Below, one piece after another: positions 445 through 62,306 of a stretch of 64,000 nt of DNA. Under the pieces are notes generated by a model. The model was given only the letters and a program-made list of their open reading frames with translations. It was not told the origin of the DNA and ran no database searches. Both the position numbers and the translations under genes were made by a program. The first letter of the stretch is position 1, and every line of letters begins with the position of its first letter. Source of the DNA: Abditibacterium sp. (GTDB lineage Bacteria > Armatimonadota > Abditibacteriia > Abditibacteriales > Abditibacteriaceae); contig CBDASK010000003.1 in NCBI GenBank assembly GCA_965199495.1, forward strand, positions 3,264,001 through 3,328,000, in the 5' to 3' direction.

Positions 445-882
445 CTAAAATTCCAATGTGAGCGTAAATGGCCCATCGTTTTCGACTTGGACGCGCATCT
501 CGGCGCCAAAGCGTCCGGTCTGCACGGGCACATTTTGCTCGCGTAAAAGTGTAGCAAGCAACTCAAACAGCCGGTTCGCTTCGTCGGGCCGCGCCGCACT
601 GGTAAACGCCGGGCGCGCGCCCTTTTTCAATTCGCCGCACAACGTGAAATTCGAGACCAGTAATACTGAGCCGCCGACCTGTTCCAGATTCCAGTTGAAT
701 TTGCCATCTTCATCGTCGAACACGCGCAGCGCCGCGATTTTGCTGGCGCATTTGCGGGCATTGTCGTCGGTATCGGTTTGGGTAACGCCGACGAAAACAA
801 CCAAACCGCGCTCGATGTGCGCGATGGTTTGGTTTTCGACGACGACAGACGCGGCGTGGCTGCGTTGGATGACGAGTTTCAT
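445..882 (-). CDS. dtd: D-aminoacyl-tRNA deacylase
   Basis: MKLVIQR start, VSNFTL (SQFTL-like), GRFGAEMRV, NDGPFT motifs. Confidence 0.95.
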   Translation of the reverse strand: MKLVIQRSHAASVVVENQTIAHIERGLVVFVGVTQTDTDDNARKCASKIAALRVFDDEDGKFNWNLEQVGGSVLLVSNFTLCGELKKGARPAFTSAARPDEANRLFELLATLLREQNVPVQTGRFGAEMRVQVENDGPFTLTLEF

Positions 883-890
883 ATTTCTTT

Positions 891-1057
891 AAATTCAGTT
901 GACCACAAAAACACAGAACTCACAAAAGGCACAAAAAAATTCAAAAAAATTCAAGAGGTTTTGAAGAGAAATTATTCAGTAAAGAAAGCTCGAACAGGTA
1001 TTTTTGAATTTTTTTGTGCCTTTTGTGAGTTCTGTGTTTTTGTGGTCAATTGAATTT
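891..1057. repeat. Long palindromic element, family A (TTGACCACAAAAAC...GTTTTTGTGGTCAA)
   Basis: About 55-bp inverted arms; related copy in opposite orientation at 41354-41502. Confidence 0.85.
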
Positions 1058-3437
1058 AATCGGTATCAATCGCTTTCTCTTTCGCCATCGCCAGCACACC
1101 AGCCACGGCGAGATAAATCACCGCGCCGATGCTCAAAACCGCGCCGAATCCGATGACTTTGGCCGCGACCGCCGCCACAATCGAGCCGACGACCGAAGCC
1201 GTGCCGTTGAGCGCCCACACGAGCGGCACGAAACCTTCGCCCTTGTGCGCGCTCCACAAACGCAGCCCCGATGGAAATGGCGTCCCCAGCAAAAATCCCA
1301 GTGGCAACAGCACAATCGCCACCAAAACGCAGCGCGCCACCAGTGGCAAAGGCAACAGCAAACTGGAAAATGGGCCGGACAGAATCCCGAAAATCGCCGC
1401 AAAAATCGCCACGCCCAGCGTACACGCTTGCGCGTGGCTGCGCAAAGCGTCGCCCGCGAACTTCTGCGAAAACGCCGCGCCCGCGCCGCCGCCCAATAAT
1501 ATCGAACCTAAAATTATCGTCAGCGATAATGTCGGATAGCCCAATGGTAATATCAATTTTTCAATGAGCGGAATTTCGATGAGCATGAATCCTACGCCCA
1601 GCGCCAGAAAATAGCCGACCTGCGCGGCGGCATTTCCAAGCGCGCGCTTTTCGCGCCGCGCGCCGAGGCCGACGAGCGTCGCGGCGAATAACAATGTCGC
1701 GCCGACGCTGAGACCCAATAAAATCGTCAGGCTGGGCGACGATTGGAAAATTGCCCACGGCGACATGGATAAATCTAAGACGAACGGGCGATTATCGGGC
1801 GCGGGCGATAAATCGAGCGGCGGCGCGCCCGGCACGTTCAGGCCCGAATTGATGAAACCGTCCATCGTCAGCGCGCCGCCGCCCAGCGCGCCAAAGGGGA
1901 ATATTTCGTTGCTCGCCGCCTGACCGGGAATCCATAACGGGAAAATGCCGCGCTTTTGGGCGCTGCTTTTCATGCGCGCGGCTTCATCGGCGGGAATCGG
2001 GTTGGGGCGCACCAACAGCGCCCATTGATATGGCCCCGGCTGATTGTAATAAACCACCGCGATGTGCGCGCCCGCCTGCGCCGTCGTCTGGCCTTGGTCA
2101 ATGAAATGTTGATAAGCCGTCGCGTAAAGTCGCGCCAACAAGGGCGCCGCGTCGCCGACAATGGCGAGTTGCCCTTTAGGTTGCAGCGTCGCCAGATAAT
2201 CGTCGAACGCGTCGGTTGTATAGATAAACGATTCGAGCAAAGCGCCGCCTTGACCCGCCGTGGCTGTCTTGGTCAGAGCCGAAAAAATCAGTTGATATTT
2301 CACGCCCTTTTGCCGCGCCTCGCGCACGAACGCGCGGCCTTCGGCGACCTGAACGTGAACGCGGGGATTGGAATAAATGCCGCCGTTGTATTGTTTATAT
2401 TTCGGCTCGTTCATCAACTCGACAATCGAAGGATTAATCTCGGCGCCATCAAATCTCTCGGCGCCATAACGCAACGCTAACAACGCGTCCAAACCGCCGC
2501 CCGGCCCAATGGACATCATGCGTTGGCCGTCCAAATTCGAGTTGTCAAACGTCCAATCGGAAATCGGAAACTCGCCGACGATGTTGGGCAACTCATAGAT
2601 TTTGCCGTCCCAATTCATCATGTTGGTCGGCACGTTGCCGTTGGTATAAAGCAAAAACGAATCGGGCGATTCGGGGTCTTTGACCACATCGGTGCGCGCG
2701 AACGCGTTCCAGCGCGTGTCCACAATTTTCGAGCCGTAACTTTTGTTGCCCAACTCGGTATAAAGCGGTTGAGTGATGCCACGGTCAGCCAGCGTTGCGC
2801 CGTCTTTGTCGGGCATCGGCGGAATCGGCTGCACGCTCCATAAATCGAAGTGACGGTTGTAGGGAATCAGCGCCAGCAAAATCAGCGCGATGGCGAGCGA
2901 AAATTTCTTGTCTTTGCCCAGTAAAACCGCGACAAACGCGCCCAGTGCGCCAAAGGCCAGACACGCGTTGGCCGCGCCCAAACCCTGCATAATGACCACG
3001 CTGCCAACAGCAGCCACGGCGGCCCCAGCCAAATCGAAGGCGTATAATCTGCCGCCCCATTGGGAGTAGCGCTCGAACGCCAACGCCAGAAACGCGCCTG
3101 CCGCGATGAACGGCCACAAAACAATCAAAGCCGCGACCCAATAATGTTGCGGGATAAACGCGAACACGCCGCGCAAGATGAGCGCGAGCGAAATCGCGCT
3201 TAAAACGCCCCACCACAACGCCAATTTATCGAGCGATAAATGACGAAATCGGTTGGCCAAAAGCCCGCCCAAACCCAATCCGCACAGCGCGAGCGAAACG
3301 ATGAGGAACGCGAATTGGTAGCGTAGCAAAACCGCGAACACGCGCGAAAGGGCGACTTCGTAGCCCAAAACCGCCGCCGATAACAAGGCGATGGCGAGAA
3401 ATAATGCGGGAGCGGGACGTTCTTCTTGTGGGGACAC
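1056..3437 (-). CDS. Membrane protein with spermidine-synthase-like SAM-binding domain
   Basis: N- and C-terminal TM bundles around IGPGGGLD...GAEINP...EGRAFV; likely GTG start at 3437 (ORF track extends to 3494 into a repeat). Confidence 0.8.
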   Translation of the reverse strand: MSPQEERPAPALFLAIALLSAAVLGYEVALSRVFAVLLRYQFAFLIVSLALCGLGLGGLLANRFRHLSLDKLALWWGVLSAISLALILRGVFAFIPQHYWVAALIVLWPFIAAGAFLALAFERYSQWGGRLYAFDLAGAAVAAVGSVVIMQGLGAANACLAFGALGAFVAVLLGKDKKFSLAIALILLALIPYNRHFDLWSVQPIPPMPDKDGATLADRGITQPLYTELGNKSYGSKIVDTRWNAFARTDVVKDPESPDSFLLYTNGNVPTNMMNWDGKIYELPNIVGEFPISDWTFDNSNLDGQRMMSIGPGGGLDALLALRYGAERFDGAEINPSIVELMNEPKYKQYNGGIYSNPRVHVQVAEGRAFVREARQKGVKYQLIFSALTKTATAGQGGALLESFIYTTDAFDDYLATLQPKGQLAIVGDAAPLLARLYATAYQHFIDQGQTTAQAGAHIAVVYYNQPGPYQWALLVRPNPIPADEAARMKSSAQKRGIFPLWIPGQAASNEIFPFGALGGGALTMDGFINSGLNVPGAPPLDLSPAPDNRPFVLDLSMSPWAIFQSSPSLTILLGLSVGATLLFAATLVGLGARREKRALGNAAAQVGYFLALGVGFMLIEIPLIEKLILPLGYPTLSLTIILGSILLGGGAGAAFSQKFAGDALRSHAQACTLGVAIFAAIFGILSGPFSSLLLPLPLVARCVLVAIVLLPLGFLLGTPFPSGLRLWSAHKGEGFVPLVWALNGTASVVGSIVAAVAAKVIGFGAVLSIGAVIYLAVAGVLAMAKEKAIDTD

Positions 3438-3616: not shown

Positions 3617-4705
3617 ATGACAATGAATTTGATCGGACAAAATACCGCGCAACTCGAAAACACATTATCTTCCATCGGCGAGAAACCGTTTCGCGGGCGC
3701 CAACTGGCGCAGTGGATTTATGGCAAAGGCGCCGCGACGTTCGGCGAAATGTCGAATTTGGGCGCGCCTTTAAAAGCCAAACTCGAAGCGCAGACCGCGC
3801 TCGAATTTCCCCTCGTCGTGACGCGCTACGAATCGCCCGATGGCACCACCAAACTTCTGCTGCAAATGGACGATGGCGAGCGCGTCGAAACCGTGCGTAT
3901 TCCCTACGCGCAGCGTTTGAGCGCGTGCGTTTCCAGTCAGGCCGGTTGCGCGATGGCGTGCCAGTTTTGCGCGACCGGTTTGGGCGGCTTTCGACGCAAT
4001 TTGACGACGGCGGAAATTATCGGCCAATTGTTGCTCGTTAAACGCGAAGGCGGTTCAATCCGTGAGCCGGGTCAGACACCCAGCCACGTCGTGTTTATGG
4101 GCATGGGCGAGCCGCTTCTCAATACCAAAAACGTGTTCCCGGCGCTTCACTTGATGCACGAAGAAATGGGCATTCCGATGCGGCAAATTACGGTTTCGAC
4201 TGTCGGCATTTTGCCCGGCATCGCGGCTTTGGCCGAGCAACGGTTGCAACTGACGCTGGCGATTTCGCTTCATGCGCCGACCGACGAGTTGCGCCATCGC
4301 CTGATTCCGACTTCGACAAAAACGCACGTCCGCGAAATCATCGCCGCCGCGCGCGATTATGTCGAGCAAACCGGGCGGCGCGTGACGTTTGAATACGTCG
4401 TGTTGGGCGGCGTCAACGACAGCCCGCAGATGGCCAAAGAGCTGGCGAAATTGTGCAAAGGCTGGGCGTGCCACGTCAATTTGATTCCGTGGAACGATGT
4501 GCCCGACGCCAAGCTCGAAGGCGCGGCTTTCGGCGCGCCGCACCCGGCGGATTTGGCGAATTTTCGTGTAACCTTGGAAAGCTCGAACATTTCGGTGACG
4601 CAGCGCGTGCAGCGCGGCGCCGACGTGGCTGCTGCGTGCGGACAACTGCGCGCCTTCGATTCCGATAAACAACGCGAAGGCGTGATTCCGCTCGCGGTTG
4701 TCTGA
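3617..4705 (+). CDS. rlmN: 23S rRNA/tRNA m2A methyltransferase RlmN
   Basis: CVSSQAGCAMACQFC radical SAM motif, FMGMGEP, ISLHA, RGADVAAACGQL. Confidence 0.95.
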   Translation: MTMNLIGQNTAQLENTLSSIGEKPFRGRQLAQWIYGKGAATFGEMSNLGAPLKAKLEAQTALEFPLVVTRYESPDGTTKLLLQMDDGERVETVRIPYAQRLSACVSSQAGCAMACQFCATGLGGFRRNLTTAEIIGQLLLVKREGGSIREPGQTPSHVVFMGMGEPLLNTKNVFPALHLMHEEMGIPMRQITVSTVGILPGIAALAEQRLQLTLAISLHAPTDELRHRLIPTSTKTHVREIIAAARDYVEQTGRRVTFEYVVLGGVNDSPQMAKELAKLCKGWACHVNLIPWNDVPDAKLEGAAFGAPHPADLANFRVTLESSNISVTQRVQRGADVAAACGQLRAFDSDKQREGVIPLAVV

Positions 4706-4708
4706 TTT

Positions 4709-5455
4709 TTAGCGTGGGCGGCGCGCGAAATCTTTTTCGTAGTGCGGCGCCAGCGTGCCGAACAGTCGATCCCAAATCAAGGTGTAAAAGCCGAAATTAT
4801 GGTTTTCGTCCTGATGATGGCCCGCATGAAAACTGCTGGTTGAAATGTATTTGAGAACGCGATGGGTTTTCCAACGATCTGGAAACGGCTCAACTCCAAC
4901 GTGACCGATCAGGCCAAACAGCACGTTGAACATCAGATAAGTCGTCATGCCCAGCCACGTCGCCTGATAAACGCACAAAAGCGCGAGCCACATCACGCCG
5001 AAGCTGAGACATTCCAACGGATTCAGCACAAAAAGCGTCAGAGGGCGCGGGTTTTCGTAGCGGTGATGCGTGCGATGAACGATTTTGAAAATCCACGGAA
5101 TATGGGCGATGCGGTGCGCGACATACATCGCACCGTCCATCGCTAACACCAAAATCAGGAAATCTAATACGGCGGATAAAGAAAATTCGGAGCGCAAGCA
5201 GATAAATCCCCAGCGCCACAAATAAAGTCCGGCCAAAGTGACCAGCGAGTTCAACAAAATTGTGGTCGAAGCCAGCAATATTTCTTCGCCAGAAACTGGA
5301 GCCGCCGCTTCAGCGACTGCGCGATTGGCATAAAGGCGCGCGATCCACGCTCCCACAACTAACGCGCCGCCAAAGATAAATAAATTTTCCAGCAGGAACG
5401 CCAGCGCCATAATCCACACGGGCGTTGTGTGCAAAATGTGAATGAGAGCTTCCAT
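4709..5455 (-). CDS. Sterol desaturase / fatty acid hydroxylase family protein
   Basis: His boxes HRIAH, HRTHH, HAGHH; NFGFYTLIWDRLFGT. Confidence 0.9.
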   Translation of the reverse strand: MEALIHILHTTPVWIMALAFLLENLFIFGGALVVGAWIARLYANRAVAEAAAPVSGEEILLASTTILLNSLVTLAGLYLWRWGFICLRSEFSLSAVLDFLILVLAMDGAMYVAHRIAHIPWIFKIVHRTHHRYENPRPLTLFVLNPLECLSFGVMWLALLCVYQATWLGMTTYLMFNVLFGLIGHVGVEPFPDRWKTHRVLKYISTSSFHAGHHQDENHNFGFYTLIWDRLFGTLAPHYEKDFARRPR

Positions 5456-5470: not shown

Positions 5471-6046
5471 CTAACGCAGAAAATTGGTTCGCTCAATGAT
5501 TATAAACGGTCTTTTTATTTTCTGGCCCGAACTTTCTTGAGGAGTTGAACCGCGATTCAACGGCGCGCGGCGTAACAGCGCGAGCAGCACGCAAACCGTA
5601 GCCACGGCGAGTGGGAAGCAGATCGAAGCGTAGGCGGCGGCTTGAATCGTATCGGTGGGCGCGCCGTAATGGTAGAGGCGATTGCCGCTGTTTAAATCGG
5701 TTTGCAAGCTCCAATAGCACCAGAGCAGCAACGAAAATCCCAGACCAACGTAGGCCAGACGCGCGCGCCAGATGAGTTTGCTCAGCCAAAAACCTTCGAT
5801 GGCGCACAACGCGCCCGCGACGAGCGGCCAAACGCAAGTGATGAGCGGCAGCAAATAAACCGTCAAAACGTCTTTCTGGGCGCCGTAATAATCGCCGTCG
5901 GCGGGCAGGGCGAAAGTTTCCCGCAGCAAACGATGGAAAGCGATGGTCGTTATCAGCCACGCTATGCCCAGCGAAATCGCCGCGAGCAAAGCGATTTCGC
6001 CGCGAATCCCGCCTTCGTCCGCCGTGCGCCAGTGAATCACGGACAT
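5471..6046 (-). CDS. Hypothetical membrane protein
   Basis: 191 aa ORF with about 4 hydrophobic segments, co-oriented with the desaturase. Confidence 0.6.
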   Translation of the reverse strand: MSVIHWRTADEGGIRGEIALLAAISLGIAWLITTIAFHRLLRETFALPADGDYYGAQKDVLTVYLLPLITCVWPLVAGALCAIEGFWLSKLIWRARLAYVGLGFSLLLWCYWSLQTDLNSGNRLYHYGAPTDTIQAAAYASICFPLAVATVCVLLALLRRAPLNRGSTPQESSGQKIKRPFIIIERTNFLR

Positions 6047-8135: not shown

Positions 8136-9224
8136 GTGACCGACGAATTTGTTGATTTTTACGAGATTTTAGAGTTGCCCCTAGAAGCCGAGCGTTCCGA
8201 AGTTCGCAAGCGCATTAGCGAACTTTATGTCGAGGCGCAGAAAAATCTGGATCACCGCAATTTTAATACGCGCGTGCATTATCAGCAGTTATTTGAGATC
8301 ATATTGCCTCAGGCGCGCTATATTCTGTTGGACGAGGGACGGCGCGACGATTATGATCGTTTGGTGCGGGCTTCGCGCGGCCCCGATACGAGCAGTGCAG
8401 CCACGGGGGGCGAGAAGCCTGCGCAATCCACGGAGATGGGGCAGGGCAGTGACCGTTTTAAAACGGCTTCGAGCGGTGTTGCTGGCGCCGCGCCGCGCAT
8501 TGACGCGTTGCCCGACCAAGTTGACCCGCAGCAGTTGGAGCGCGAGCGCGAAGAACTCTGGAACAAATGGAAGGCCGGTTTGCAAGGCACGATGGAGCGC
8601 GAGGCGGCCAGAGAAAAAGGGCGCGAAGAGAAAACTCCTAACGCCGCCACAACGCCGCTCGCCGACCGCATCGAAGCCGCTCAAAGCGGAGCGCCCCAGC
8701 CGCAAGTTGGTCTGGGCGAACCTGCCGCGCCCGGCCCGTCTTCGCGTCCCGCGTCGCGGCCTCAACGGCCTAAAGTGAAATTCGATTTCGGTGGCGAAGA
8801 AAATAACGCCCCGCAAACCCACGAAAACGCGCCCGTCGCTGCCGCGGGAGAGTCCACGACTCCGGTCGCTGATGGCCTCACGGATCAACAAATCGAGGAA
8901 CGTCGTCTGAATCAACAGCGCGAGGTGATTCGCTCCGAATTGGAAAATACCGGCCTCAAAGGTGTGATGATTGGCGCCACCGCCGTTTTGTTGCCGGGCG
9001 TGGTTGCCATGACGATTTTCATGAGCCATTATTATCCGGTCAACAAAGTTCCGACGTTGCCGATCAAAAACGCGGGCGTGGCGTGGCTGCTGTGGTTGCT
9101 GGTTCTGGGCGCCTTGGCGTTTTTGTGCGCTCATCTGCTTTCCAAGTCCATGCGCCGCAAACAGGCCTTGGAACTTCAGCTCATGAGCTACGAAGATTTG
9201 ATGCGCCGCCGCAACAACGCGTAA
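8136..9224 (+). CDS. J-domain-like protein lacking HPD, with C-terminal TM helices
   Basis: DFYEILEL...ARYILLDEGRRDDYD J-like helices; RBS AAGGAG before GTG; two C-terminal hydrophobic segments. Confidence 0.75.
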   Translation: MTDEFVDFYEILELPLEAERSEVRKRISELYVEAQKNLDHRNFNTRVHYQQLFEIILPQARYILLDEGRRDDYDRLVRASRGPDTSSAATGGEKPAQSTEMGQGSDRFKTASSGVAGAAPRIDALPDQVDPQQLEREREELWNKWKAGLQGTMEREAAREKGREEKTPNAATTPLADRIEAAQSGAPQPQVGLGEPAAPGPSSRPASRPQRPKVKFDFGGEENNAPQTHENAPVAAAGESTTPVADGLTDQQIEERRLNQQREVIRSELENTGLKGVMIGATAVLLPGVVAMTIFMSHYYPVNKVPTLPIKNAGVAWLLWLLVLGALAFLCAHLLSKSMRRKQALELQLMSYEDLMRRRNNA

Positions 9225-9515: not shown

Positions 9516-10127
9516 ATGACAAGACTCGATGGCGAAAAGAAATCGCCCTTGCCCTGGATTATCGGGCTGATCGTTTTGGCGCTCCTCGCGGCGGCCATTT
9601 ACTATCTCACGGCTAACAAAACGAATAATACCGCCGTTGACGTGAATAGCCCGGCTATGCCAAGCAATTCGCCCAGCGCGATGGGCGATGCCAATACGGC
9701 TAATGCCAACGCCACCGATGCCAATGCGTTAGATTTCAACGCGACCGACACCAATATGGCCGATTCCAACGCGATGGCCGATAACAGCGCGATGAGCGAT
9801 TCCAATGCGATGGATTCCAATAGCGCGATGATGGACAATGCAGCCACGTCGGATTCCAACAGCGCGATGTCGGACAACTCGGCCATGTCGGACACCAACA
9901 GTGCGATGTCGGACAACTCGGCGGCCAACATGGCGATGCCGGGCGTGACGCCGGTGGCTGGTAATGCGAAGCCAGATGGCAACGGCGTTGTTGCTACGCG
10001 TTCCAAAACCATCGAAACCAAAAATGCGATTGTGACTTATAAGAAGTCGGTCAAAGAAGACGGTTCTTTGATGCACGATAAAACCATCGTTTCCAAACCG
10101 GTCGAGCAAGCCAAGAAAATGCAATAG
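9516..10127 (+). CDS. Membrane-anchored low-complexity protein with DSNAM/DNSAM repeats
   Basis: MTRLDGEKKSPLPWIIG TM anchor then about 10 Asp-Ser-Asn-Ala-Met repeats; followed by a terminator. Confidence 0.8.
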   Translation: MTRLDGEKKSPLPWIIGLIVLALLAAAIYYLTANKTNNTAVDVNSPAMPSNSPSAMGDANTANANATDANALDFNATDTNMADSNAMADNSAMSDSNAMDSNSAMMDNAATSDSNSAMSDNSAMSDTNSAMSDNSAANMAMPGVTPVAGNAKPDGNGVVATRSKTIETKNAIVTYKKSVKEDGSLMHDKTIVSKPVEQAKKMQ

Positions 10128-22397: not shown

Positions 22398-22583
22398 TTT
22401 TAGCGGCGGCTCCCGCCGTGGCTGTTGTTGGGCCATGCGAACGAGCGAAAATTTCGCGGCAGAGTTGCGAGGGTTTGCGGTTTACTTAGGCGGTCACCCA
22501 TTTTTAGAGCGCTTGTAATCGTGCGAGTTTTATTTTGACAGAAAATCGCGCCTCAACAATAGTTTGTTCCACATTTTAATACG

Positions 22584-50495: not shown

Positions 50496-51056
50496 TTATC
50501 CCGCGTAGCGGAACTGGGAATCGTCGGAGTAGGCGCGGGCGATGCGACGGGCGATGTCGGGAATCGTGTCTTTGTCGGTCTGCACGACCAAACTGGCGCA
50601 ATTCAGATAAATCTCTTCGCGATCCGCCAACAGTTCCTCGACGCGCTTTTGCGTGGCTTCGAGCGAGAGTTCGCCGTCGCCATCAATGAGCGGGCGCTTG
50701 CCCGGCGAGCGGCGAATGCGCGCGGCCAAAACCGGCGCCGAGGTTTGCAAATAAACGACCATCGCGCCTTGGTCAATGGCGTTATCCAGCACTTCGCGAT
50801 TCTGCTCGCGCATCGGCACGCCGCCGCCCAACGATATGGCGCCGCGCCGACTGGCGACCTGCGCCAGATGCTGCGTTTCGAGTTCGCGAAACTTGTCTTC
50901 GCCGTATTGCGCGAAATAATTGGCGATGGAGCAGCCGATTTGCCGCTCGATGCGCGCGTCCAAATCCACGAACGGCACGCCCAACTGGCGCGCCAACGAG
51001 CGAGCCACGGCGCTCTTGCCGCAACCCATAAAGCCCATCAGGAAAATTGGTTTCAT
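50496..51056 (-). CDS. aroK: Shikimate kinase
   Basis: GFMGCGKS, DLD, GE..FR..E, LGGG, RPL. Confidence 0.93.
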   Translation of the reverse strand: MKPIFLMGFMGCGKSAVARSLARQLGVPFVDLDARIERQIGCSIANYFAQYGEDKFRELETQHLAQVASRRGAISLGGGVPMREQNREVLDNAIDQGAMVVYLQTSAPVLAARIRRSPGKRPLIDGDGELSLEATQKRVEELLADREEIYLNCASLVVQTDKDTIPDIARRIARAYSDDSQFRYAG

Positions 51057-51176: not shown

Positions 51177-52436
51177 TCAGCGCACTTGTCCATTGCCCCG
51201 CACCAGATATTTCGTCGTCGTCAACGATTCCAAACCCATCGGCCCGCGCGCGTGCAACTTTTGCGTCGAAATCCCGACTTCGGCGCCCAACCCGAACTCG
51301 TAGCCGTCGGTGAAGCGCGTCGAGGCGTTGACGTAAACCGCCGCCGCGTCCACTTCGTTCAAGAACCGTTCCGCGTTGGCGTAATCGCGCGTAATTATTG
51401 CCTCAGAGTGCGCGGTGCCGTGGGTCGCGATATGTTCCATCGCTTCGTCTAAATCGGCGACGATCTTAATCGCCAACGTCAAATCGAGATATTCGGCGCC
51501 CCAGTCATCCGCCGTGGCTGATTGGATCGAAGGCATAATTGCACGCGCACTTTCATCACCGCGCAATTCAACATTCGCTGCGAAAAACTGCGCGGACATC
51601 GCGGGCAAAAACTGCGCGGCGACGCTTTGATGAACCAGCAGCGTTTCGACCGCATTGCACGCCGACGGGCCGTTAGTTTTGGCATTAAACACGACCTCGC
51701 GCGCCATTTCCAAATCGGCGAATTGGTCAACGTAAACGTGACAAACGCCGCCCGCCGCGAAAATCACCGGGACGGTCGCGACTTCCATCAACGTCTTTTT
51801 CAAGCCTTCGCCGCCGCGCGGAATAATCAAATCAACCAAACCTTTTTGCGTGGCGAGCAGACTCGAAGCCGCGCGGTCTGTGGTTTGGACAAAGCCAATC
51901 GCGCCATCGGGAAAACCGGCGTCTTGCGCGGCGCGGTCTATGATTTCGCTCAACACGCGATTAGTTTCGATGGCTTCGCTGCCACCGCGCAGAATGACGG
52001 CGTTGCCCGCTTTAAGCGCCAAAATCGCCGCGTCAACTGTGACGTTGGGCCGCGATTCGTAAATCACCGCGACAACGCCCAATGGCACGCGCACGCGTTC
52101 GATTTTCAAACCGTTGGGCCGGTTTTCGCCGTCCAACACGCGGCCAATTGGGTCGGGCAGAGCAGCCACGTCGCGGCAACCCTGCGCCATCGCGGCGATT
52201 TTGGCGTCGGTCAACGTCAGCCGATTGAGCAAAGCCGTGCCGATACCTTTGCGCGCGCCGTTTTCGACATCTATTTGGTTGGCAGCGAAAATCGCGTCGC
52301 GGTTGTCGCAAATCGCCGTCGCCATCGCTTCGAGCGCAGCGTTTTTAGCGGCGCTCGATAAGTTCGCGAGGGCGCGTGAGGCCAATTTCGCGGCGCGCGC
52401 GAGTTGTTCTGTTTCGTGGGCGGTTTCTTGTTCCAT
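51177..52436 (-). CDS. proA: Gamma-glutamyl phosphate reductase
   Basis: VPLGVVAVIYESRPNVT, SACNAVET, NASTRFTDG, GISTQKLHARGPMGL. Confidence 0.96.
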   Translation of the reverse strand: MEQETAHETEQLARAAKLASRALANLSSAAKNAALEAMATAICDNRDAIFAANQIDVENGARKGIGTALLNRLTLTDAKIAAMAQGCRDVAALPDPIGRVLDGENRPNGLKIERVRVPLGVVAVIYESRPNVTVDAAILALKAGNAVILRGGSEAIETNRVLSEIIDRAAQDAGFPDGAIGFVQTTDRAASSLLATQKGLVDLIIPRGGEGLKKTLMEVATVPVIFAAGGVCHVYVDQFADLEMAREVVFNAKTNGPSACNAVETLLVHQSVAAQFLPAMSAQFFAANVELRGDESARAIMPSIQSATADDWGAEYLDLTLAIKIVADLDEAMEHIATHGTAHSEAIITRDYANAERFLNEVDAAAVYVNASTRFTDGYEFGLGAEVGISTQKLHARGPMGLESLTTTKYLVRGNGQVR

Positions 52437-53963: not shown

Positions 53964-54464
53964 GTGAAACCTTCTCAACTTTCGCGCGAACTGCGCACCG
54001 GCCAATCCGCCGAACTCAACAATCGCCGCCTGATCGTCGGCCTTTCGTTAATTGGCGTGGGCATGGCGCAAATCGTCTCGCTTTATCAGGTCGGCATCAT
54101 CAAACATTTGCCCGACCCTCCGCTCGATGTTTTCGATTCCGACAAAGTGGATGCTTCGGATTACGCCTACAAACGCTTTGGGACACCCGACGGTTTTTTG
54201 ATGCTGATGAGTTATGCAGCCACGGCGACTCTGGCGGGCGCGGGCGGCGAAAAACGAAGCCAGACGCATCCGTTAGTATCGCTCGCGATGGGCGCCAAAA
54301 TCGCGCTCGATTTGTTGTCGGCGGCAGAGTTGGCGCGCGAAGAGTGGCAAGACAACAAAAAATTGTGCGCTTACTGCCAAACCGCGACTCTGGCTTCGAT
54401 TGGCTCGTTGTGGTTGGCGTGGCCCGAAATCAAAAGCGCATGGGAAAACTGGCGCGGCGGCTGA
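53964..54464 (+). CDS. VKOR-family membrane protein
   Basis: LYQ.GII.HLPDPP...FDSDKV, LCAYC motif; likely GTG start at 53964. Confidence 0.82.
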   Translation: MKPSQLSRELRTGQSAELNNRRLIVGLSLIGVGMAQIVSLYQVGIIKHLPDPPLDVFDSDKVDASDYAYKRFGTPDGFLMLMSYAATATLAGAGGEKRSQTHPLVSLAMGAKIALDLLSAAELAREEWQDNKKLCAYCQTATLASIGSLWLAWPEIKSAWENWRGG

Positions 54465-55308: not shown

Positions 55309-56832
55309 ATGACAACACTTTCGGCGCCCATCGCGGGCGCGGCGCACCCGCAGTTGCAGGAATTGCGCGAAATTCTCACGCAGGCCAACGATTTAAACGG
55401 CGCCGCTTCGCTGCTCCATTGGGATCAGGCGACGTATATGCCGCCGGGCGGTGCGGCGGCGCGCGGGCGACAACTTGCCACTCTTTCGCGTTTGGCGCAC
55501 GAAACATTTATTCAACCGCGCGTCGGCGAACTTTTGGAAGCGTTGCGGGCTTTGGAAAACGAATCCGATCCCGATGGCTTTGATGCGGCGCTAATTCGCG
55601 TATCGCGGCGCGATTACGAAAAAGCCGCACGCATCCCGACCGAGTTCGAGGCGCGCTTTTCGGAGCATTGCGCCCTCGCCTACGAGACTTGGACGCGCGC
55701 GCGGCCCGCGAACGATTGGAATTTGATTCGTCCGGTTTTGGAGCAAACGCTCGATTTGTCGCGCGAACTAACGAGTTTTACGCCGCACGAACATCCCGCC
55801 GACCCGCTCATTGACGACAGCGATCCGGGCTTTACCGCCGCGCAAATCAGCGCTTTATTTGGTCAGTTGCGCGACGAACTCGTGCCTTTGGTGTCCGACG
55901 TGGCTGCACGCGGCGCCGCCGATGACGCGGTTTTGCGCGGAAATTTTAGCATCCAATCGCAGCGCCAATTCGCGCGCGATGTCGTCGGCGATTTGGGCTA
56001 CTCGTTCGAGCGCGGGCGCATGGACGCGACGCACCATCCGTTTATGACCAAGTTTTCGCTGGGCGATGTGCGCATCACCATTCGCGAGGACGAAAGCGAA
56101 GTTTCGAGCCTATTTCTGGGCGCGATTCACGAGGCGGGACATGCGATGTATGAACAGGGGATTTCTCCAATTTATGAAGCCACGCCACTCGCCAACGGCG
56201 CTTCGAGCGGTTTGCACGAAAGCCAATCGCGCCTGTGGGAAAACTTCGTCGGGCGCTCGCCGCAGTTTTGGGAGTTCTATTATCCCAAGTTTCAGGCGCT
56301 GTTTCCGCAATTAGAAAGCGTGAAATTGGATGAGTTTTTGCGCGCGCTTAACCGCAGCGAGCAAACCTTGATTCGCACCGAAGCCGACGAGTTGACTTAC
56401 AATTTGCACGTTATGATTCGGTTCGATTTGGAATTGCAGATGTTAGATGGGCGTCTCGACATCAAAGATTTGCCCGATGCCTGGAACGCGCGTTACCAAT
56501 CGGATTTGGGCGTGACGGTGCCCGATTACAATCACGGATGTTTGCAGGATGTGCATTGGTTTAGCGGCCCGATTGGCGGCGCGTTTCAATGCTACACGCT
56601 GGGCAACATTTTGTCAGCGCAGTTCTTCGAGGCAGCCACGCGCGCTCAACCTTCGATTCCCGATGATATGACGCGCGGCGAATTTGGCGCTTTGCGCGAT
56701 TGGTTGACCGGCAATTTATATCGTTTTGGCCGCGCGCGCGAGCCGCAACAACTCATCGAAAGCGCGGTTGGCGGGCCGCTCGATATTGCGCCCTATATGA
56801 ATTATTTGCGCGATAAATATGATTGTCAGTAA
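55309..56832 (+). CDS. Carboxypeptidase M32 (Taq-like)
   Basis: WDQ.TYMP, HPF, HEAGH, HESQS, IRTEADE, QDVHW. Confidence 0.95.
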   Translation: MTTLSAPIAGAAHPQLQELREILTQANDLNGAASLLHWDQATYMPPGGAAARGRQLATLSRLAHETFIQPRVGELLEALRALENESDPDGFDAALIRVSRRDYEKAARIPTEFEARFSEHCALAYETWTRARPANDWNLIRPVLEQTLDLSRELTSFTPHEHPADPLIDDSDPGFTAAQISALFGQLRDELVPLVSDVAARGAADDAVLRGNFSIQSQRQFARDVVGDLGYSFERGRMDATHHPFMTKFSLGDVRITIREDESEVSSLFLGAIHEAGHAMYEQGISPIYEATPLANGASSGLHESQSRLWENFVGRSPQFWEFYYPKFQALFPQLESVKLDEFLRALNRSEQTLIRTEADELTYNLHVMIRFDLELQMLDGRLDIKDLPDAWNARYQSDLGVTVPDYNHGCLQDVHWFSGPIGGAFQCYTLGNILSAQFFEAATRAQPSIPDDMTRGEFGALRDWLTGNLYRFGRAREPQQLIESAVGGPLDIAPYMNYLRDKYDCQ

Positions 56833-58282: not shown

Positions 58283-59884
58283 ATGCCTTCCGTTCCACCG
58301 CCCGCGCCGCTCGATGCGTCATTGCCACAACCCGTCGAAACAACAGCCACGCCGCCTGTGCCGATACGCCAGAGCGGCGCGTCCATCGTGCGCAACACGT
58401 TGGTGGCGAATTTGGCGACGCTGTTTTCGATATTTACCGGCTTTTTTCTGACGCCGATTTTGTTGCGCGCGCTGGGCGCCGATACTTTTGGCGTGTGGTC
58501 GCTGGCGCTGGGCATTATCGGCCAACTGGCGATCATCCAACTGGGGCTGAATACGGCGATTCCTCAGCAGGTCGCCGCCAAACTGGCGCTGGGCGACCGC
58601 GACGGCCTCGACAAAATCTTCTCGACGGCTTTTGCCGCTTATCTGGCGTGCGCCGCGTTGAGTCTGCTCGCGACGGGCGTTTTTATTTTCATCGCGCCCC
58701 ACTTTTTCAAAGTTGCGCCGTCGCAGTTGGGCACGATTCGCTGGACTTTATTGGTTTTGGGCGTTAATCAAGCGTTGGCTTTTGGCGTGGCTCTGCGCGA
58801 CGCCTTGGTGTTCGGTTCGGGTCGCATGTTCCTGACTTCGAGCATCAACATGGTGGTCAATCTGGGCATCACGTTGGGCTTTATCGCGATGGCACTGGCC
58901 GGGCGCGGCACCGTCGGCATGGCGGGCGTGATGCTGTGCGCCACCATCGTCAACCTCGCGCTTTATCAGCGTTTATTGTCCGATGAGTTTTCCGGTCTCA
59001 AACCCAGCCGCCGCCAATTCAGCCGCGAAACACTACAACGTTTGCTGCGCGTCGGGCGCGATCAATTCGCGATTTCTTTATCGGGCGTAGTTTCGTTTGG
59101 CGCCAACAGTTTGATTTTGGGCGTTTTACTAACGCCCAACGCGCTCGCGCTTTACGCGCTGTCGGTGCGGCTGATGAATTTCATCGAGCAGATTTCGACC
59201 AAGTTTTCGTCGGTCTCGCTACCGGTTTACGCGCAGGCCCACGCGGCGGGCGATAAAGCGCAGATGCGACGCATTTTTACCGAAAGCATTACGGTCAGCA
59301 TGGGCATCGCTGTGCCGTTTTTTCTCGTCTCGCTGGTGCTGGGCAAACGATTAATGCTGGCGTGGGTTGGCCCGCATCACGACGAGGCCGCGACGTTATG
59401 GGCGTTGGGTATGGCGATGTTTATCTGTCGTTTGCCGGGCCAAATCGCCATCACAATTCTCAACGGCGCCGAGAAAACCGGCTTAATCATCAAAGTGTTT
59501 TTGGCCGCGTCGGTCGTTGATCTGGCGCTCTCGTATGGGCTGACGCGCCAATTGGGCGCGGGCGGCGTTTATATCGGCTCGATCATCGTCGGCGCGGCGA
59601 TTGATTTCGGTTGGTTGCCGTGGTTCGTGTGCCGCGAATTCGGCTTTTCGCCGCGCGCGTTTTGGGCCGACGGCCTGTTGCCGCTATTGCCATCGGTCAT
59701 TGTCGGCGGCGCCGTGGCTGTTGCACTCGCGCGCGCGCCGTTGCCATCGGGCACGCTCACAACGTTAGCCGCGACCCTCGTTCTGCTGGGCTGTTCGTGG
59801 ATAACGTGGTTTTTCGTCGGTCTGCCAGCCAGCCGCCGCGAACGTTTCATGCGCGCACTGGGACGCGCAATGCGGCGCGGTTGA
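58283..59884 (+). CDS. Wzx-type polysaccharide flippase
   Basis: N..ANL...GFFLTPILLRALG...FGVW; 12-14 TMs. Confidence 0.85.
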   Translation: MPSVPPPAPLDASLPQPVETTATPPVPIRQSGASIVRNTLVANLATLFSIFTGFFLTPILLRALGADTFGVWSLALGIIGQLAIIQLGLNTAIPQQVAAKLALGDRDGLDKIFSTAFAAYLACAALSLLATGVFIFIAPHFFKVAPSQLGTIRWTLLVLGVNQALAFGVALRDALVFGSGRMFLTSSINMVVNLGITLGFIAMALAGRGTVGMAGVMLCATIVNLALYQRLLSDEFSGLKPSRRQFSRETLQRLLRVGRDQFAISLSGVVSFGANSLILGVLLTPNALALYALSVRLMNFIEQISTKFSSVSLPVYAQAHAAGDKAQMRRIFTESITVSMGIAVPFFLVSLVLGKRLMLAWVGPHHDEAATLWALGMAMFICRLPGQIAITILNGAEKTGLIIKVFLAASVVDLALSYGLTRQLGAGGVYIGSIIVGAAIDFGWLPWFVCREFGFSPRAFWADGLLPLLPSVIVGGAVAVALARAPLPSGTLTTLAATLVLLGCSWITWFFVGLPASRRERFMRALGRAMRRG

Positions 59885-59930: not shown

Positions 59931-61082
59931 ATGAAGATCGCTTTATTTCCCAGCGCGTTTCATCCCAATCTGGGTGGCGTCGAAGAATTGACCCGCCAAC
60001 TGGCGCACGCGCTGCAACGACGCGAGCATCAAATACTTATCGTAACGCAGCGCTGGCCGCGCGATTTGCCCGCCACCGAAGAATTTGAAGGCTTGCCGCT
60101 TTATCGCGTGGCGTTTGCGGGCGCGCCACAAGGCTGGAACGCGGGCGCGCTCAAGGCGCGCGCGCAATGGAACAATCGTCGCCGCATCGCCGAACGCGAA
60201 ACCGCGCGCATTTTGCACGAAACGGGCGCCGATTTGGTTCACATCCAATGCGCGGGGCCAAACGCTTATTATGCGCACCATGCCGCGCGCGAATTGAAGT
60301 TGCCGCTTGTTCTCAGTGCGCAGGGCGAATTGACGATGGACGCGACGGGACTTTATCAGAAATCGGGCTGGATGCGCGGCGTCTTGCGCGAAATCCTGCG
60401 CGACGCCGCGCAAATTACGGCCTGTTCGCGCAATTCGCTGAACGACCTCGAAAACTTCGCGCGCCCGCTTGCAATTGCCGAAAAATCGCGCGTGATTTAC
60501 AACGGCATCTCGCGCGCCGATTTCGCCGCCGCGCCCGATGCAGCCACGGCGCCGCGCCCCTATGTTTTCGCGATGGGGCGATTCGTCAAACAGAAGGGAT
60601 TCGATGTTTTAATCGACGCATTTATCCGCGCCGAAATAAACGAGTTCGATTTAATAATCGCGGGCGCTGGCCCCGAACAATCCACGCTCGAATCGTTGGC
60701 GCAAAACGCGCCCAACGTGAGTTTCTGGGGACGCGCCGAGCGCGCCGATGTCGTGCGCTTGTTGCGTGGTTGCGCGTGGTTTGTATTGCCTTCGCGCGTC
60801 GAGCCGCAGGGCATCGTTAATCTCGAAGCGATGGCCGCCGGGCGCGCGGTTGTCGCCTCGCGAACCGGCGGCGTGCCCGAAATCGTGTTGGACGGCCAAA
60901 CTGGGGTTTTAGTCGAACCGGATAACGTCGAATCGTTGGCAAACGCGCTGCGCGAAATGGCGACGCAACCCGCGCGCCGCGACGCGTTGGGCGCGGCGGG
61001 ATTTCAGCGCGCGCAAAGTTTCGATTGGGACGCGATAGCGGCGCAATACGAAACGGTTTATCGAGCGGCGTTAGAGAAATAA
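59931..61082 (+). CDS. Glycosyltransferase family 4
   Basis: P.LGGVE, GRFVKQKG, PSRVEPQGIVNLEAMA. Confidence 0.92.
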   Translation: MKIALFPSAFHPNLGGVEELTRQLAHALQRREHQILIVTQRWPRDLPATEEFEGLPLYRVAFAGAPQGWNAGALKARAQWNNRRRIAERETARILHETGADLVHIQCAGPNAYYAHHAARELKLPLVLSAQGELTMDATGLYQKSGWMRGVLREILRDAAQITACSRNSLNDLENFARPLAIAEKSRVIYNGISRADFAAAPDAATAPRPYVFAMGRFVKQKGFDVLIDAFIRAEINEFDLIIAGAGPEQSTLESLAQNAPNVSFWGRAERADVVRLLRGCAWFVLPSRVEPQGIVNLEAMAAGRAVVASRTGGVPEIVLDGQTGVLVEPDNVESLANALREMATQPARRDALGAAGFQRAQSFDWDAIAAQYETVYRAALEK

Positions 61083-61088
61083 TCAACT

Positions 61089-62306
61089 ATGCAATCGCCC
61101 GAACCCTTCGATTTAATCTACATCGCGCTCGAACCGTGGGACGAAGTGTGGCGCCGTAACCAACCGCTCTGCGCCGAATTGGCGCGCAGTGGCGCGTCAA
61201 GGCGCATTGTTTATGTCGAGCCGCCGCGCGTCGTGCCTTATTGGCTGGTGCGTCCGCAAATGCGGCGCACCGACCTCAAACGGCGCGGATTGCGACCGGT
61301 CAAAGGGCGCGGCGGGCATAACATCGCCGGTATTCAAGCGTTCGCGCCGTTGCAAATTTTGCCCAACACTTTCGCGCCGTTGCGCGCGTTCAACCAGTGG
61401 CACGAACGCCAACAATTGCGCGCGATTTCGCGGCGCGCGGGTTTGAACCATCCCACGCTTTACACCAATTCGCACTGGGCCGCACCGCTCGCCGGAACGC
61501 TAAATGAGCGCGGTCTGGTCTACGATATCGGCGACGATTGGCTCGCCGTCCCCGACAAACGTTTGGATCGCATCCGCGCGGACGACGAATTGTTGTGTCG
61601 CGAAGCGGGCGCGACAATTGTAGTTTCGGGGCGGTTGCGCGAACTCAAAACGCCGCTTTCCAATCGCGTCGAACTCGTGCCCAACGGCGTAGATGTCGAA
61701 CATTACCAAGGCGCCGTGGCTGCTAAGAGCGAGGCGCATCCTATCGCGAAAAATTGGCGCAAACCGGTGCTGGGATATTTGGGTTCGATTCACGCCGAAC
61801 GCGTGGATTTGCCATTAATTGAAGCGCTTTCTCAGGCGTTACCCGACGCGACGATTGCTCTGGTTGGGCCAATTTTGCTCGATGAAAAAGACAAAACGCG
61901 TTTGGCGAAATTGCCCAATGTCGCATTAACCGGTTCGGTGGCGTTCGAGGAATCGCCCGCCGTTTTGCGGGCGTTTGATGTTTTTTTGGTGCCGCACGTC
62001 GAAAGCGATTTTACGCGCAGCCTGAACCCACTTAAACTGGGCGAGTATCTTTCGATTGGCAAACCCATCGTCTCGACGCGCGTCGCCGGATTCGCCGAGT
62101 TGGAAGGCCAAACCGCCGCCGACGGCACGCCGCTCTGCCGCTTAGCCACCGGCGCCAAAGATTTTATCGAACAATGCCGGTTGGCCCTGGGCGAATCGGA
62201 CGCCGTCGCGCCGAACGAGCGACGCGAAATCGCGCAAAGTATGAGTTGGCGCGAGCGTGTCTCGCGTATCGCGGAAATCGTGCGCGAGGTGCGCGCGGCA
62301 GTTTGA
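61089..62306 (+). CDS. Glycosyltransferase (GT-B, TuaH-like)
   Basis: VYDIGDD, VPNGVD, GYLG, P.KL.EYL..GKPIVS. Confidence 0.85.
   Translation: MQSPEPFDLIYIALEPWDEVWRRNQPLCAELARSGASRRIVYVEPPRVVPYWLVRPQMRRTDLKRRGLRPVKGRGGHNIAGIQAFAPLQILPNTFAPLRAFNQWHERQQLRAISRRAGLNHPTLYTNSHWAAPLAGTLNERGLVYDIGDDWLAVPDKRLDRIRADDELLCREAGATIVVSGRLRELKTPLSNRVELVPNGVDVEHYQGAVAAKSEAHPIAKNWRKPVLGYLGSIHAERVDLPLIEALSQALPDATIALVGPILLDEKDKTRLAKLPNVALTGSVAFEESPAVLRAFDVFLVPHVESDFTRSLNPLKLGEYLSIGKPIVSTRVAGFAELEGQTAADGTPLCRLATGAKDFIEQCRLALGESDAVAPNERREIAQSMSWRERVSRIAEIVREVRAAV

What the first reader, a model, noticed from the sequence alone, without database searches (positions are those of the whole stretch)
855..61723. Iterated non-palindromic motif GCAGCCACG(NCG) on both strands: candidate DNA-uptake-like or chromosome-organising signal
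Seen: at least 27 exact 9-mers. As GCAGCCACG at 3010, 8397, 9840, 16661, 34408, 36890, 39132, 44251, 52162, 54216, 56632, 60540. As CGTGGCTGC at 855, 1433, 4624, 9082, 12784, 14737, 16609, 19806, 26159, 37584, 37891, 39572, 44802, 55899, 61715. About as many more sites share only the AGCCACG core. A rough zero-order estimate at about 58% GC gives around 1 expected. 18 of the 27 continue with NCG. The strand split is 12:15. Sites fall almost all inside genes, in different frames (AAT, VAA, RSH, WL, QPR), often using GCA/GCT codons that look uncommon here, and some lie in permissive linkers (two in the AccB linker, one in the DSNAM repeats). Known: Neisseriaceae DUS and Pasteurellaceae USS are 9-12 bp, non-palindromic, present on both strands and embedded in coding DNA, whereas Chi and KOPS are replichore-skewed. 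Inference: selection or drive at the DNA level. Candidates are an uptake sequence in a lineage where I know of none, a nucleoid-protein site, or a methyltransferase-linked motif like cyanobacterial HIP1.
Basis: partly seen in the sequence, partly recalled or inferred. Interest (0 to 1): 0.85.

Follow-up and report, generated by a model that had tools for sequence, protein, structure and literature searches.

The report
One-per-strand DNA word in Abditibacterium
A small group of Abditibacterium bacteria has written one short DNA word about 2,900 times into its chromosome. Each of the two strands keeps its own copies about 1–2 kb apart, which points to an unknown machine that reads the word on single strands, most likely as a 'self' tag when DNA is taken up and recombined.

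Summary
Observation confirmed: 27 of 27 sites (0.97 expected). Genome-wide the word is (GC)AGCCACG[CGT]C(G): 2,913 copies of AGCCACGNCG, 21-fold over synonymous-codon shuffles, with an all-or-none core and no replichore skew (50.3% leading, while KOPS is skewed). It is rare in islands and small contigs, arises by point mutation, and is enriched in 3 of 13 genomes of the genus.

New feature: copies on the same strand avoid each other (142 gaps under 600 bp against 493 expected; reach about 0.6 kb, flat beyond 2 kb), while opposite-strand copies are independent. Samples of DUS, USS and E. coli Chi do not show this. In a relative, a REP-like hairpin carries the core and displaces the other copies, at the same total density.

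Best reading: a polar self-tag read on single strands in transformation or recombination, spread by molecular drive (0.45). AddAB is missing in the three motif-rich genomes, but a Dna2-like candidate and resident methyltransferases failed co-occurrence tests. Earlier notes of this scan report similar hyper-abundant words in other phyla.

The parts
855..863 (-). GCAGCCACG site followed by NCG (SHA frame, sense)
1433..1441 (-). GCAGCCACG site (SHA frame)
3010..3018 (+). GCAGCCACG site with NCG (antisense, AVAA)
4624..4632 (-). GCAGCCACG site with NCG, in rlmN (DVAA)
8397..8405 (+). GCAGCCACG site (AAT)
9082..9090 (-). GCAGCCACG site (AWL)
9840..9848 (+). GCAGCCACG site with NCG (AAT)
12784..12792 (-). 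GCAGCCACG site with NCG (AVAA)
14737..14745 (-). GCAGCCACG site inside an IS481-family transposase gene
16609..16617 (-). GCAGCCACG site in accB; inverted pair with 16661
16661..16669 (+). GCAGCCACG site in accB
19806..19814 (-). GCAGCCACG site with NCG (GVAA)
26159..26167 (-). GCAGCCACG site with NCG (AVAA)
34408..34416 (+). GCAGCCACG site in panD (QPR)
36890..36898 (+). GCAGCCACG site (PWL)
37584..37592 (-). GCAGCCACG site with NCG (AATP)
37891..37899 (-). GCAGCCACG site with NCG; the only one of the 27 outside a called gene
39132..39140 (+). GCAGCCACG site with NCG (AWL)
39572..39580 (-). GCAGCCACG site with NCG (AVAA)
44251..44259 (+). GCAGCCACG site with NCG (AVAA)
44802..44810 (-). GCAGCCACG site with NCG (AATA)
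52162..52170 (+). GCAGCCACG site with NCG, in proA (DVAA)
54216..54224 (+). GCAGCCACG site with NCG (AATA)
55899..55907 (-). GCAGCCACG site with NCG (DVAA)
56632..56640 (+). GCAGCCACG site (AAT)
60540..60548 (+). GCAGCCACG site with NCG (AATA)
61715..61723 (-). GCAGCCACG site with NCG (AVAA)
1101..1110 (+). further AGCCACGNCG site, not among the 27
2256..2265 (-). further AGCCACGNCG site
4082..4091 (+). further AGCCACGNCG site
4953..4962 (+). further AGCCACGNCG site
5600..5609 (+). further AGCCACGNCG site
12334..12343 (+). further AGCCACGNCG site
13811..13820 (-). further AGCCACGNCG site (in ung)
17953..17962 (-). further AGCCACGNCG site
20435..20444 (+). further AGCCACGNCG site
22414..22423 (-). 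further AGCCACGNCG site
23623..23632 (-). further AGCCACGNCG site
24995..25004 (+). further AGCCACGNCG site
27606..27615 (-). further AGCCACGNCG site
30436..30445 (+). further AGCCACGNCG site
32183..32192 (-). further AGCCACGNCG site
33840..33849 (+). further AGCCACGNCG site
36445..36454 (+). further AGCCACGNCG site
38635..38644 (+). further AGCCACGNCG site
47479..47488 (+). further AGCCACGNCG site (in lon)
48952..48961 (+). further AGCCACGNCG site (in lon)
51003..51012 (+). further AGCCACGNCG site
51510..51519 (-). further AGCCACGNCG site
58345..58354 (+). further AGCCACGNCG site
59710..59719 (-). further AGCCACGNCG site

Best explanation
The word (GC)AGCCACG[CGT]C(G) is a polar self-tag read on one DNA strand at a time by a factor with a reach of about 0.6 kb. 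SHOWN (by sequence statistics): each strand behaves as if it fills its own quota of one copy per 1-2 kb. A second copy nearby on the same strand is disfavoured, a copy on the other strand is independent, and replication and transcription direction do not matter. INFERRED: the step is the single-stranded phase of natural transformation and homologous recombination, when one strand of an incoming fragment is imported, protected or loaded for strand exchange. A strand bearing the word succeeds more often, so alleles that create the word convert alleles that lack it (molecular drive) until each strand is covered at the scale of a recombined tract. The reader protein was NOT identified, and competence of this organism is inferred from genes only.
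For: Enrichment: 2,643 against 126 in codon-shuffled CDS; CAGCCACG[CGT]CG 2,112 against 18 expected, with single changes in AGCCAC at O/E 0.2-3.8. Spacing: same-strand pair correlation is 0.00-0.26 below 300 bp and returns to about 1 by 1.3-2 kb, opposite-strand about 1; 7 control words show no such pattern. The exclusion holds across oppositely oriented genes (5 observed, 25.2 expected), so it belongs to the DNA strand, not the transcript. Hazard of the next same-strand site rises from 0.05 to 0.46 per kb by 2 kb and stays flat to 8 kb; exponential reach 589 bp, NLL 25,370 against 25,707 for Poisson. Repeated in G011: 9 same-strand against 26 opposite-strand pairs at 50-600 bp in a 445-kb sample. 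No skew: 1,464 of 2,913 on the leading strand, against 294 of 380 for GGGNAGGG. Quota: in G004 a REP-like hairpin supplies 113 of 208 AGCCACGNC sites; other sites are depleted 100-1,000 bp from it (17 against 31.9; 0 of 2,000 within-locus draws as low; rho -0.67 over 17 loci); CAGCCACGNC density is 0.53 per kb against 0.535 in G000. DUS/USS-like traits: mostly point differences between orthologues; 68 of 93 sites kept in G011 against 35% for random positions; 1 and 2 sites on the small contigs against 15 and 40 expected; none in the 16S gene; 15 of 15 intergenic -/+ pairs are perfect stems, mostly just after a stop codon. comEC has an 862-aa open frame, and comEA, dprA and a type II/IV secretion ATPase match Pfam.
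Against: No reader gene was found. comEC is in 5 of 5 and comEA in 13 of 13 genomes tested, motif-poor ones included, so competence genes do not explain the distribution. Any strand-specific process with an exponential reach of about 0.6 kb gives the same spacing law, so the statistics cannot separate transformation from intracellular repair or a hemimethylation mark. There is no composition asymmetry 5' versus 3' of sites beyond 100-300 bp. The three motif-rich genomes are one clade on a long branch (median amino-acid identity to G000 90% and 81%, others 57-62%), so they count as one event. In G004 strand-specific exclusion is not visible (60 strong sites in 340 kb). The DUS/USS controls are proviral loci, not chromosomes.
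Confidence: 0.45

Rival explanations
1. A Chi-like site for repair inside the cell. A translocating nuclease or helicase with about 0.6-1 kb processivity stops, or hands over to RecA, at the word. Both orientations are needed equally because breaks are two-ended, and selection on repair, not drive, keeps the sites.
For: Chi is read on single-stranded DNA (title of ref. 69 in PMC1939737). An AddA orthologue is found in 10 of 10 motif-poor and 0 of 3 motif-rich genus genomes, and tblastn finds no RecBCD or AddAB in G000. G000 and G004 encode a 1,421-aa iron-staple nuclease plus SF1B helicase of Dna2-like layout. The bacterial Dna2-like enzyme Bad unwinds an exponential mean of 900 bp (PMC7430649 passages), close to the fitted reach.
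Against: The Dna2-like gene fails in both directions. In motif-rich G011 it lacks residues 1-679 and carries a stop and a frameshift. A clade member with an 82%-identical, full-length orthologue (L162) has 0 sites in 24 kb and keeps 0 of 17 orthologous sites. G016 and G017 have the family and only one UvrD-type helicase, yet show no comparable dispersed word in 160- and 180-kb samples. The AddA query also finds no full-length orthologue in any of 14 genomes of the other genera, which lack the motif. E. coli Chi shows no same-strand exclusion (9 of 99 gaps under 600 bp, 10.5 expected).
Confidence: 0.17
2. A hemimethylated mark. A Type IIG/IIL-like enzyme methylates one strand of AGCCAC(G), and the mark labels self DNA or the old strand for a strand-specific check (mismatch repair, defence, or methylation-dependent transformation as for HIP1).
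For: A mark on one strand would make the two orientations independent (inference). The strict core has a penultimate A, as in MmeI- and DrdV-type sites (recalled, not from a call). G000 holds several resident Type IIG-like enzymes. HIP1 raises transformation in a methylation-dependent way (PMC13756078 passages).
Against: None of 4 Type IIG-like proteins tested, nor the mutS-linked methyltransferase, has a close full-length orthologue in both G011 and G004; the best, P0122, is 72-95% identical in G011 but only 32-35% in G004. Two further HsdM-like and several N6/N4 enzymes were not traced. Graded flanks over 12-13 bp are unlike a restriction site. Fourfold-site divergence from G011 is flat, 0.255-0.266, from 30 to 2,000 bp off a site, and the far bin goes up in G011 but down in G004: no support for a mismatch-repair signal.
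Confidence: 0.15
3. A classical uptake sequence: a pilin-type receptor binds the duplex word at the cell surface, as ComP does for DUS.
For: Density (0.62 per kb), both strands, point-mutation origin, depletion in acquired DNA, terminator-like inverted pairs and about 1.25- to 1.65-fold inflation of motif tripeptides over orthologues in 5 of 6 motif-poor genomes (0.94 in the sixth) all parallel PMC2817400. At least 11 prepilin-type genes are present.
Against: Duplex binding should saturate regardless of orientation; oppositely oriented USS pairs gave no extra uptake (PMC7811141 passages). Same-strand share of pairs at 50-600 bp: DUS 40 of 94 (0.47 expected), USS 29 of 54 (0.51), this word 133 of 616 (0.48). 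Intergenic density is below coding density, 0.29 against 0.69 per kb, the reverse of DUS/USS.
Confidence: 0.1
4. A chromosome-organising or replication signal (nucleoid-protein site, primase or primosome site, KOPS-like motif).
For: Even coverage of all 24 bins of 200 kb. A 1-2 kb per-strand spacing recalls Okazaki fragment length (recalled).
Against: A priming or translocase signal should be skewed, and skew is detectable here (GGGCAGGG 201:24) but absent for the word. A duplex-binding nucleoid protein should not treat the orientations independently. The word is absent from 10 of 13 genomes of the genus.
Confidence: 0.08

Closest known systems
DNA uptake sequences: DUS of Neisseriaceae (receptor ComP) and USS of Pasteurellaceae
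   Same: Thousands of 9-12 bp non-palindromic copies at 0.6-0.9 per kb, equal on both strands, arising by point mutation, scarce in acquired DNA and rRNA, reshaping tripeptides, and reused as inverted terminator-like pairs (PMC2817400, PMC3630211, PMC7811141).
   Different: Here copies exclude each other only on the same strand, which the DUS and USS samples do not show. Coding DNA is richer than intergenic DNA. The phylum is different, no receptor is identified, and no alternative dialect was found in 80-180 kb samples of 7 motif-poor relatives.
Chi sites of RecBCD and AddAB
   Same: Short, polar, G-rich on one strand (CGNCGTGGCTGC contains GTGG), plausibly read on single-stranded DNA.
   Different: No replichore skew; far stronger enrichment than the E. 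coli octamer shows over its reversed control (1,008 against 240); same-strand exclusion absent for E. coli Chi; RecBCD and AddAB not found in G000.
HIP1 of cyanobacteria
   Same: Highly iterated short word inside genes, conserved between relatives, with non-random spacing (PMC5861425, PMC13756078).
   Different: HIP1 is a palindrome tied to known methyltransferases. This word is non-palindromic and strand-resolved, and no linked methyltransferase was found.
KOPS / AIMS
   Same: Non-palindromic oligomer spread over the chromosome.
   Different: KOPS is present separately and skewed 201:24 in this genome; the word is not skewed.

Membership tests
DUS/USS uptake sequences | Hundreds to thousands of non-palindromic 9-12 bp copies, far above chance, equal on both strands | tested here: met
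DUS/USS uptake sequences | Arise by point mutation; scarce in newly acquired DNA and rRNA | tested here: met
DUS/USS uptake sequences | Inverted pairs as terminator-like hairpins | tested here: met
   15 of 15 intergenic -/+ pairs are perfect stems, mostly within 55 bp of a stop codon; termination itself not tested
DUS/USS uptake sequences | Under-represented in coding relative to intergenic DNA | tested here: not met
   0.69 per kb coding against 0.29 intergenic; spacers under 600 bp 0.32-0.38; not corrected for the lower intergenic GC (48%)
DUS/USS uptake sequences | Orientation-blind action on duplex DNA | tested here: not met
   Strand-specific exclusion here but not in proviral DUS (33 loci, 337 sites) or USS (26 loci, 241 sites) samples; indirect test
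DUS/USS uptake sequences | Competence machinery present | tested here: met
   comEC, comEA, dprA and a type II/IV ATPase by profile; comM and radA by recalled motif only
DUS/USS uptake sequences | Sequence-specific surface receptor and measured uptake preference | not testable with these tools
   needs an uptake assay; pilin candidates were not traced across genomes
Chi | Skewed with the direction of replication | tested here: not met
   1,464 of 2,913 leading; positive control GGGNAGGG 294 of 380
Chi | Cognate RecBCD or AddAB | tested here: not met
   G000 is 95% complete
KOPS/AIMS | Polarised from origin to terminus | tested here: not met
HIP1-type iterated palindrome | Palindromic | tested here: not met
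   sequence itself
HIP1-type iterated palindrome | Co-occurring methyltransferase that modifies the word | tested here: inconclusive
   5 candidates traced, none closely conserved in all three motif-rich genomes; others untraced; methylation not observable here
REP / inserted repeat | Long conserved flanks, intergenic, spread by insertion | tested here: not met
   In G000 flanks are diverse and 2,643 of 2,913 sites are in CDS; only the G004 hairpin family is REP-like

The most novel reading that the evidence does not exclude
A so far undescribed class of genome-wide signal: a 'one per strand per 1-2 kb' licence read on single-stranded DNA by an unknown factor, in a lineage that lacks AddAB and RecBCD. 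It would gate which strands enter recombination (self versus foreign) after or during import rather than at the cell surface, and be strong enough to rewrite codons, change proteins and recruit a REP family as carrier.
Probability: 0.35. Interest if true: 0.92.

Novelty: new variant of a known kind. Interest (0 to 1): 0.8.

Why it matters
Sequence-specific self tags of this abundance are established only for Neisseriaceae and Pasteurellaceae (PMC2817400) and argued for HIP1. This case adds another phylum and, more importantly, a measurable property that tells where the tag is read: on one strand, within about 0.6 kb. That turns an open question (why some genomes fill with one short word, and what reads it) into direct tests: strand-resolved transformation, methylation calling, and a gene-content contrast among close relatives that have, lack or outsource the word. 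The same strand-resolved pair statistic can be run on every other hyper-abundant word to sort them into duplex-read and single-strand-read classes.

Tried and rejected
Codon or amino-acid artefact: rejected. Chi/KOPS/primase skew: rejected. Transcript-level signal: rejected, since exclusion crosses oppositely oriented genes. Known RNA family: only one tRNA in the window.

Dna2-like helicase-nuclease P0001 as reader: attractive, then weakened. It is present without the motif (L162, G016, G017; and none of 42 further loci of at least 8 kb with distant homologues had more than 4 sites), broken in motif-rich G011, and has only 2 residues specific to the G000/G004 subclade. mutS-linked methyltransferase-SNase: found in 16 of 27 family genomes, not motif-specific. 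Four Type IIG-like enzymes: not shared. recJ is in 13 of 13, NurA in 0 of 5, and the T4SS coupling protein is not specific.

Mismatch-repair gradient: not seen. Dialects in motif-poor relatives: none found in samples of 80-180 kb; GCCGTCG in L162 is only about twofold above G000 and clusters on the same strand. Phage mimicry: 119 viral loci with a 14-mer match hold at most 3 copies. 'G004 is simply decaying': weakened by the hairpin quota, though not excluded. The single-sequence fold failed (pLDDT 35); the alignment-based fold worked (pLDDT 89.5). The first metagenome scan found nothing. The tree is the quick version only. Whole-chromosome DUS/USS controls could not be obtained.
Full report
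1. OBSERVATION. Shuffles give 0.97 on average and never more than 5. 18 of 27 continue with NCG, and the AGCCACG core occurs 66 times. 26 of 27 lie in genes called by my own dicodon finder (3,671 genes, 81% coding), and they use GCA and GCT, the two rarest Ala codons.

2. THE WORD. The window is G000:C3:3264001-3328000 of a 4.81-Mb, 3-contig genome. Its closest Lon relatives are Abditibacterium and Abditibacteriota records. Genome-wide, CAGCCACG occurs 3,091 times (order-4 expectation 436) and GCAGCCACG 1,783 times (130). AGCCACGNCG has 2,913 copies on the chromosome, 1,469 and 1,444 by strand. Shuffling synonymous codons within genes leaves 126 of 2,643, and 21.6 of 1,213 for GCAGCCACGNCG. 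Against a Markov model trained with the sites masked, CAGCCACG[CGT]CG is 115-fold enriched. Single changes in AGCCAC fall to 0.2-3.8, changes at the next G to 4-6, and the flanks are graded. The consensus is (A/T)GC-AGCCACG-[GCT]-CG: an all-or-none core with graded edges, as expected of a protein-binding site.

3. WHERE IT IS. All 24 bins of 200 kb carry it on both strands. With the origin set at dnaA, 1,464 of 2,913 sites are on the leading strand, while GGGNAGGG is 294 of 380 and GGGCAGGG 201:24. Skew is therefore detectable and the word has none. Density is 0.69 per kb in coding and 0.29 in intergenic DNA; long gaps often have atypical GC. The two small contigs hold 1 and 2 sites against 15 and 40 expected, and the 16S gene holds none. 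All 15 intergenic -/+ pairs within 45 bp are perfect stems (chance match 0.35 each), mostly just after a stop codon; coding pairs match in only 20 of 56.

4. THE NEW FEATURE: ONE QUOTA PER STRAND. Same-strand pairs are depleted to 0.00-0.26 of expectation below 300 bp and recover by 1.3-2 kb. Opposite-strand pairs sit near 1, apart from an excess below 25 bp; seven control words show nothing alike. Same-strand gaps under 600 bp number 142 against 493. The rule crosses oppositely oriented genes (5 against 25.2), so it is a property of the DNA strand. Outside 32 islands (59 of 2,913 gaps or end sites dropped), the chance of the next same-strand site climbs from 0.05 to 0.46 per kb by 2 kb and is flat to 8 kb. 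A saturating model with a 589-bp exponential reach fits far better than Poisson and as well as a linear rise to 1.85 kb. A flat tail means a fixed length scale, such as a tract length or an enzyme's processivity. G011 repeats the pattern: 9 same-strand against 26 opposite-strand pairs at 50-600 bp. Controls do not. The first 100 + strand Chi sites of E. coli give 9 of 99 gaps under 600 bp against 10.5. Proviral loci rich in DUS (33 kept after density and redundancy filters) and USS (26 kept of 77) give same-strand shares of 40 of 94 and 29 of 54, where 0.47 and 0.51 are expected; G000 gives 133 of 616 against 0.48. These controls are small and proviral; USS shows a dip at 600-2,000 bp (50 same-strand, 77 opposite) that deserves a whole-chromosome test.

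5. RELATIVES. Of 61 genomes, only G000 (1,350), G011 (1,047) and G004 (431) are enriched for GCAGCCACGNCG; 10 of 13 genus genomes are at background. The three form a long-branched clade. 68 of 93 aligned sites are kept in G011 against 35% for random positions, and about half of the differences are single substitutions. Sites fall at poorly conserved residues: 48-58% identity to four outgroups against 66-68% elsewhere. In G004 half of the AGCCACG cores belong to an intergenic hairpin family with a GTAG-like end. Other sites avoid it (17 against 31.9 at 100-1,000 bp, 0 of 2,000 within-locus draws; rho -0.67 across 17 loci), and the total CAGCCACGNC density equals that of G000. This is what a quota predicts. 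One clade member, known only from 24 kb (L162; matched genes mostly 75-96% identical), has no site and keeps 0 of 17. Motif-type peptides at the same positions in more basal orthologues (P0014-16, P0018) suggest, indirectly, that the word is older than the G000/G004 split and was lost on the L162 branch.

6. Competence genes are there but not specific: comEC in 5 of 5, comEA in 13 of 13. An AddA orthologue is in 10 of 10 motif-poor and 0 of 3 motif-rich genus genomes, and G000 has no RecBCD or AddAB; but that query finds no full-length orthologue in the 14 genomes of other genera either, which lack the word. A Dna2-like protein (P0001, 1,421 aa; N-terminal fold like AddB, Exo5 and Cas4, C-terminal SF1B helicase) matched exactly the three genomes in the genus. 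It then failed: it is truncated and interrupted in G011, intact in motif-free L162, and present in G016 and G017 without any such word. Five methyltransferases traced across genomes are not closely shared by all three. Fourfold-site divergence does not track distance to a site.

7. MECHANISM. Shown: DNA-level force, strict core, no skew, strand-specific saturation with a fixed reach, quota behaviour. Inferred: the word is read on one strand. In transformation only one strand of a fragment enters the cytoplasm (established knowledge). If a strand bearing the word is imported, protected or loaded more often, the gain from a new copy is proportional to the share of tracts that lack another copy on that strand, and is additive across strands. 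That gives the observed law and a self-reinforcing drive. A repair enzyme of limited processivity, or a hemimethylated mark, gives the same law, so these stay as rivals. Odds: transformation or recombination self-tag 0.45, Chi-like repair site 0.17, hemimethylation mark 0.15, classical duplex uptake sequence 0.10, chromosome or replication signal 0.08.

8. KNOWN SYSTEMS AND LITERATURE. It works most like DUS/USS but fails two of their features, coding under-representation and orientation-blind action. It fails Chi and KOPS on skew, and HIP1 on symmetry. What I saw: PMC2817400, abstract and first of six parts; passages only of PMC3630211, PMC7430649, PMC1939737, PMC7811141 (its supplement listed, not read), PMC13756078, PMC12061091 (notes some strand preference of single-stranded DUS), PMC5861425 and bioRxiv 10.1101/2025.10.24.684340 (supplements closed and could bear on DUES surveys). 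Searches found no report of this word, of uptake sequences in this phylum, or of same-strand exclusion (search listings only; 12 of 4,021 hits for the 7-mer were seen; most subscription journals are not covered). Type IIL site rules, Okazaki lengths and the KOPS consensus are recalled. Unchecked notes of this scan describe similar hyper-abundant words in Gemmatimonadaceae, Verrucomicrobiota and Truepera; none of the summaries I saw mentions a strand-resolved rule.

9. VERDICT. A real, strong, lineage-restricted genome signal with a spacing law not seen in the DUS, USS and Chi samples tested. New variant of the uptake-sequence kind; possibly a class of its own. Interest 0.8.

Noticed in passing
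window 3485-3580 and 49947-50041: Inverted pairs of a GTAG-type REP-like repeat (GTAGAGACACCG, 155 copies on the chromosome); it does not carry the word.
   Followed up: partly
window 11923-11997, 20023-20096, 47163: Second intergenic inverted repeat family (GCGTCAGCCCCGC, 103 copies); its CAGCCCCG differs from the motif core by one base at the strict A.
   Followed up: partly
G000 chromosome: Two more dispersed repeat families of 118-131 copies; the one with TCTCACAAGACC is strongly replichore-skewed (CTTGTGAG 143:10).
   Followed up: no
G000 whole genome: Extreme avoidance of palindromic hexamers (CTCGAG 40 against 4,165; GCCGGC 224 against 5,345; CGATCG 250 against 3,026), with many resident methyltransferase and Type IIG genes.
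   Followed up: partly
G000:C3:4111365-4115630 (L122:8365-12630, -): 1,421-aa Dna2-like iron-staple nuclease plus SF1B helicase; relatives in 19 of 401 sampled genomes of the phylum, split into two frames in four genomes of one genus; in this genus it is complementary to AddA.
   Followed up: yes
L572:2232-4512 (G011:C5): The orthologue of that gene has lost its N-terminal 679 residues and carries a stop and a frameshift, inside an otherwise syntenic contig.
   Followed up: yes
L129:8266-9543 (-), directly after mutS: N6/N4 methyltransferase with a weak C-terminal staphylococcal-nuclease-like match; homologues in 16 of 27 family genomes.
   Followed up: partly
L142-L150 (G017:C14): Very dense intergenic perfect hairpin repeat around GTACGGTCGA, about 160 half-sites in 180 kb.
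   Followed up: partly
G000:C3:1860971-1862487: Protein-coding genes are called about 1.5 kb after the single 16S gene, which suggests 16S and 23S are unlinked.
   Followed up: no
window 14290-15261 (-): IS481-family transposase just below its curated cut-off, containing one GCAGCCACG site.
   Followed up: no
L097, L098, L100, L101 (small contigs of G004) and L107-L111 (G006): Arrays of a repeated word of more than 20 bases (107 and 41 copies in the samples), possibly CRISPR arrays.
   Followed up: no
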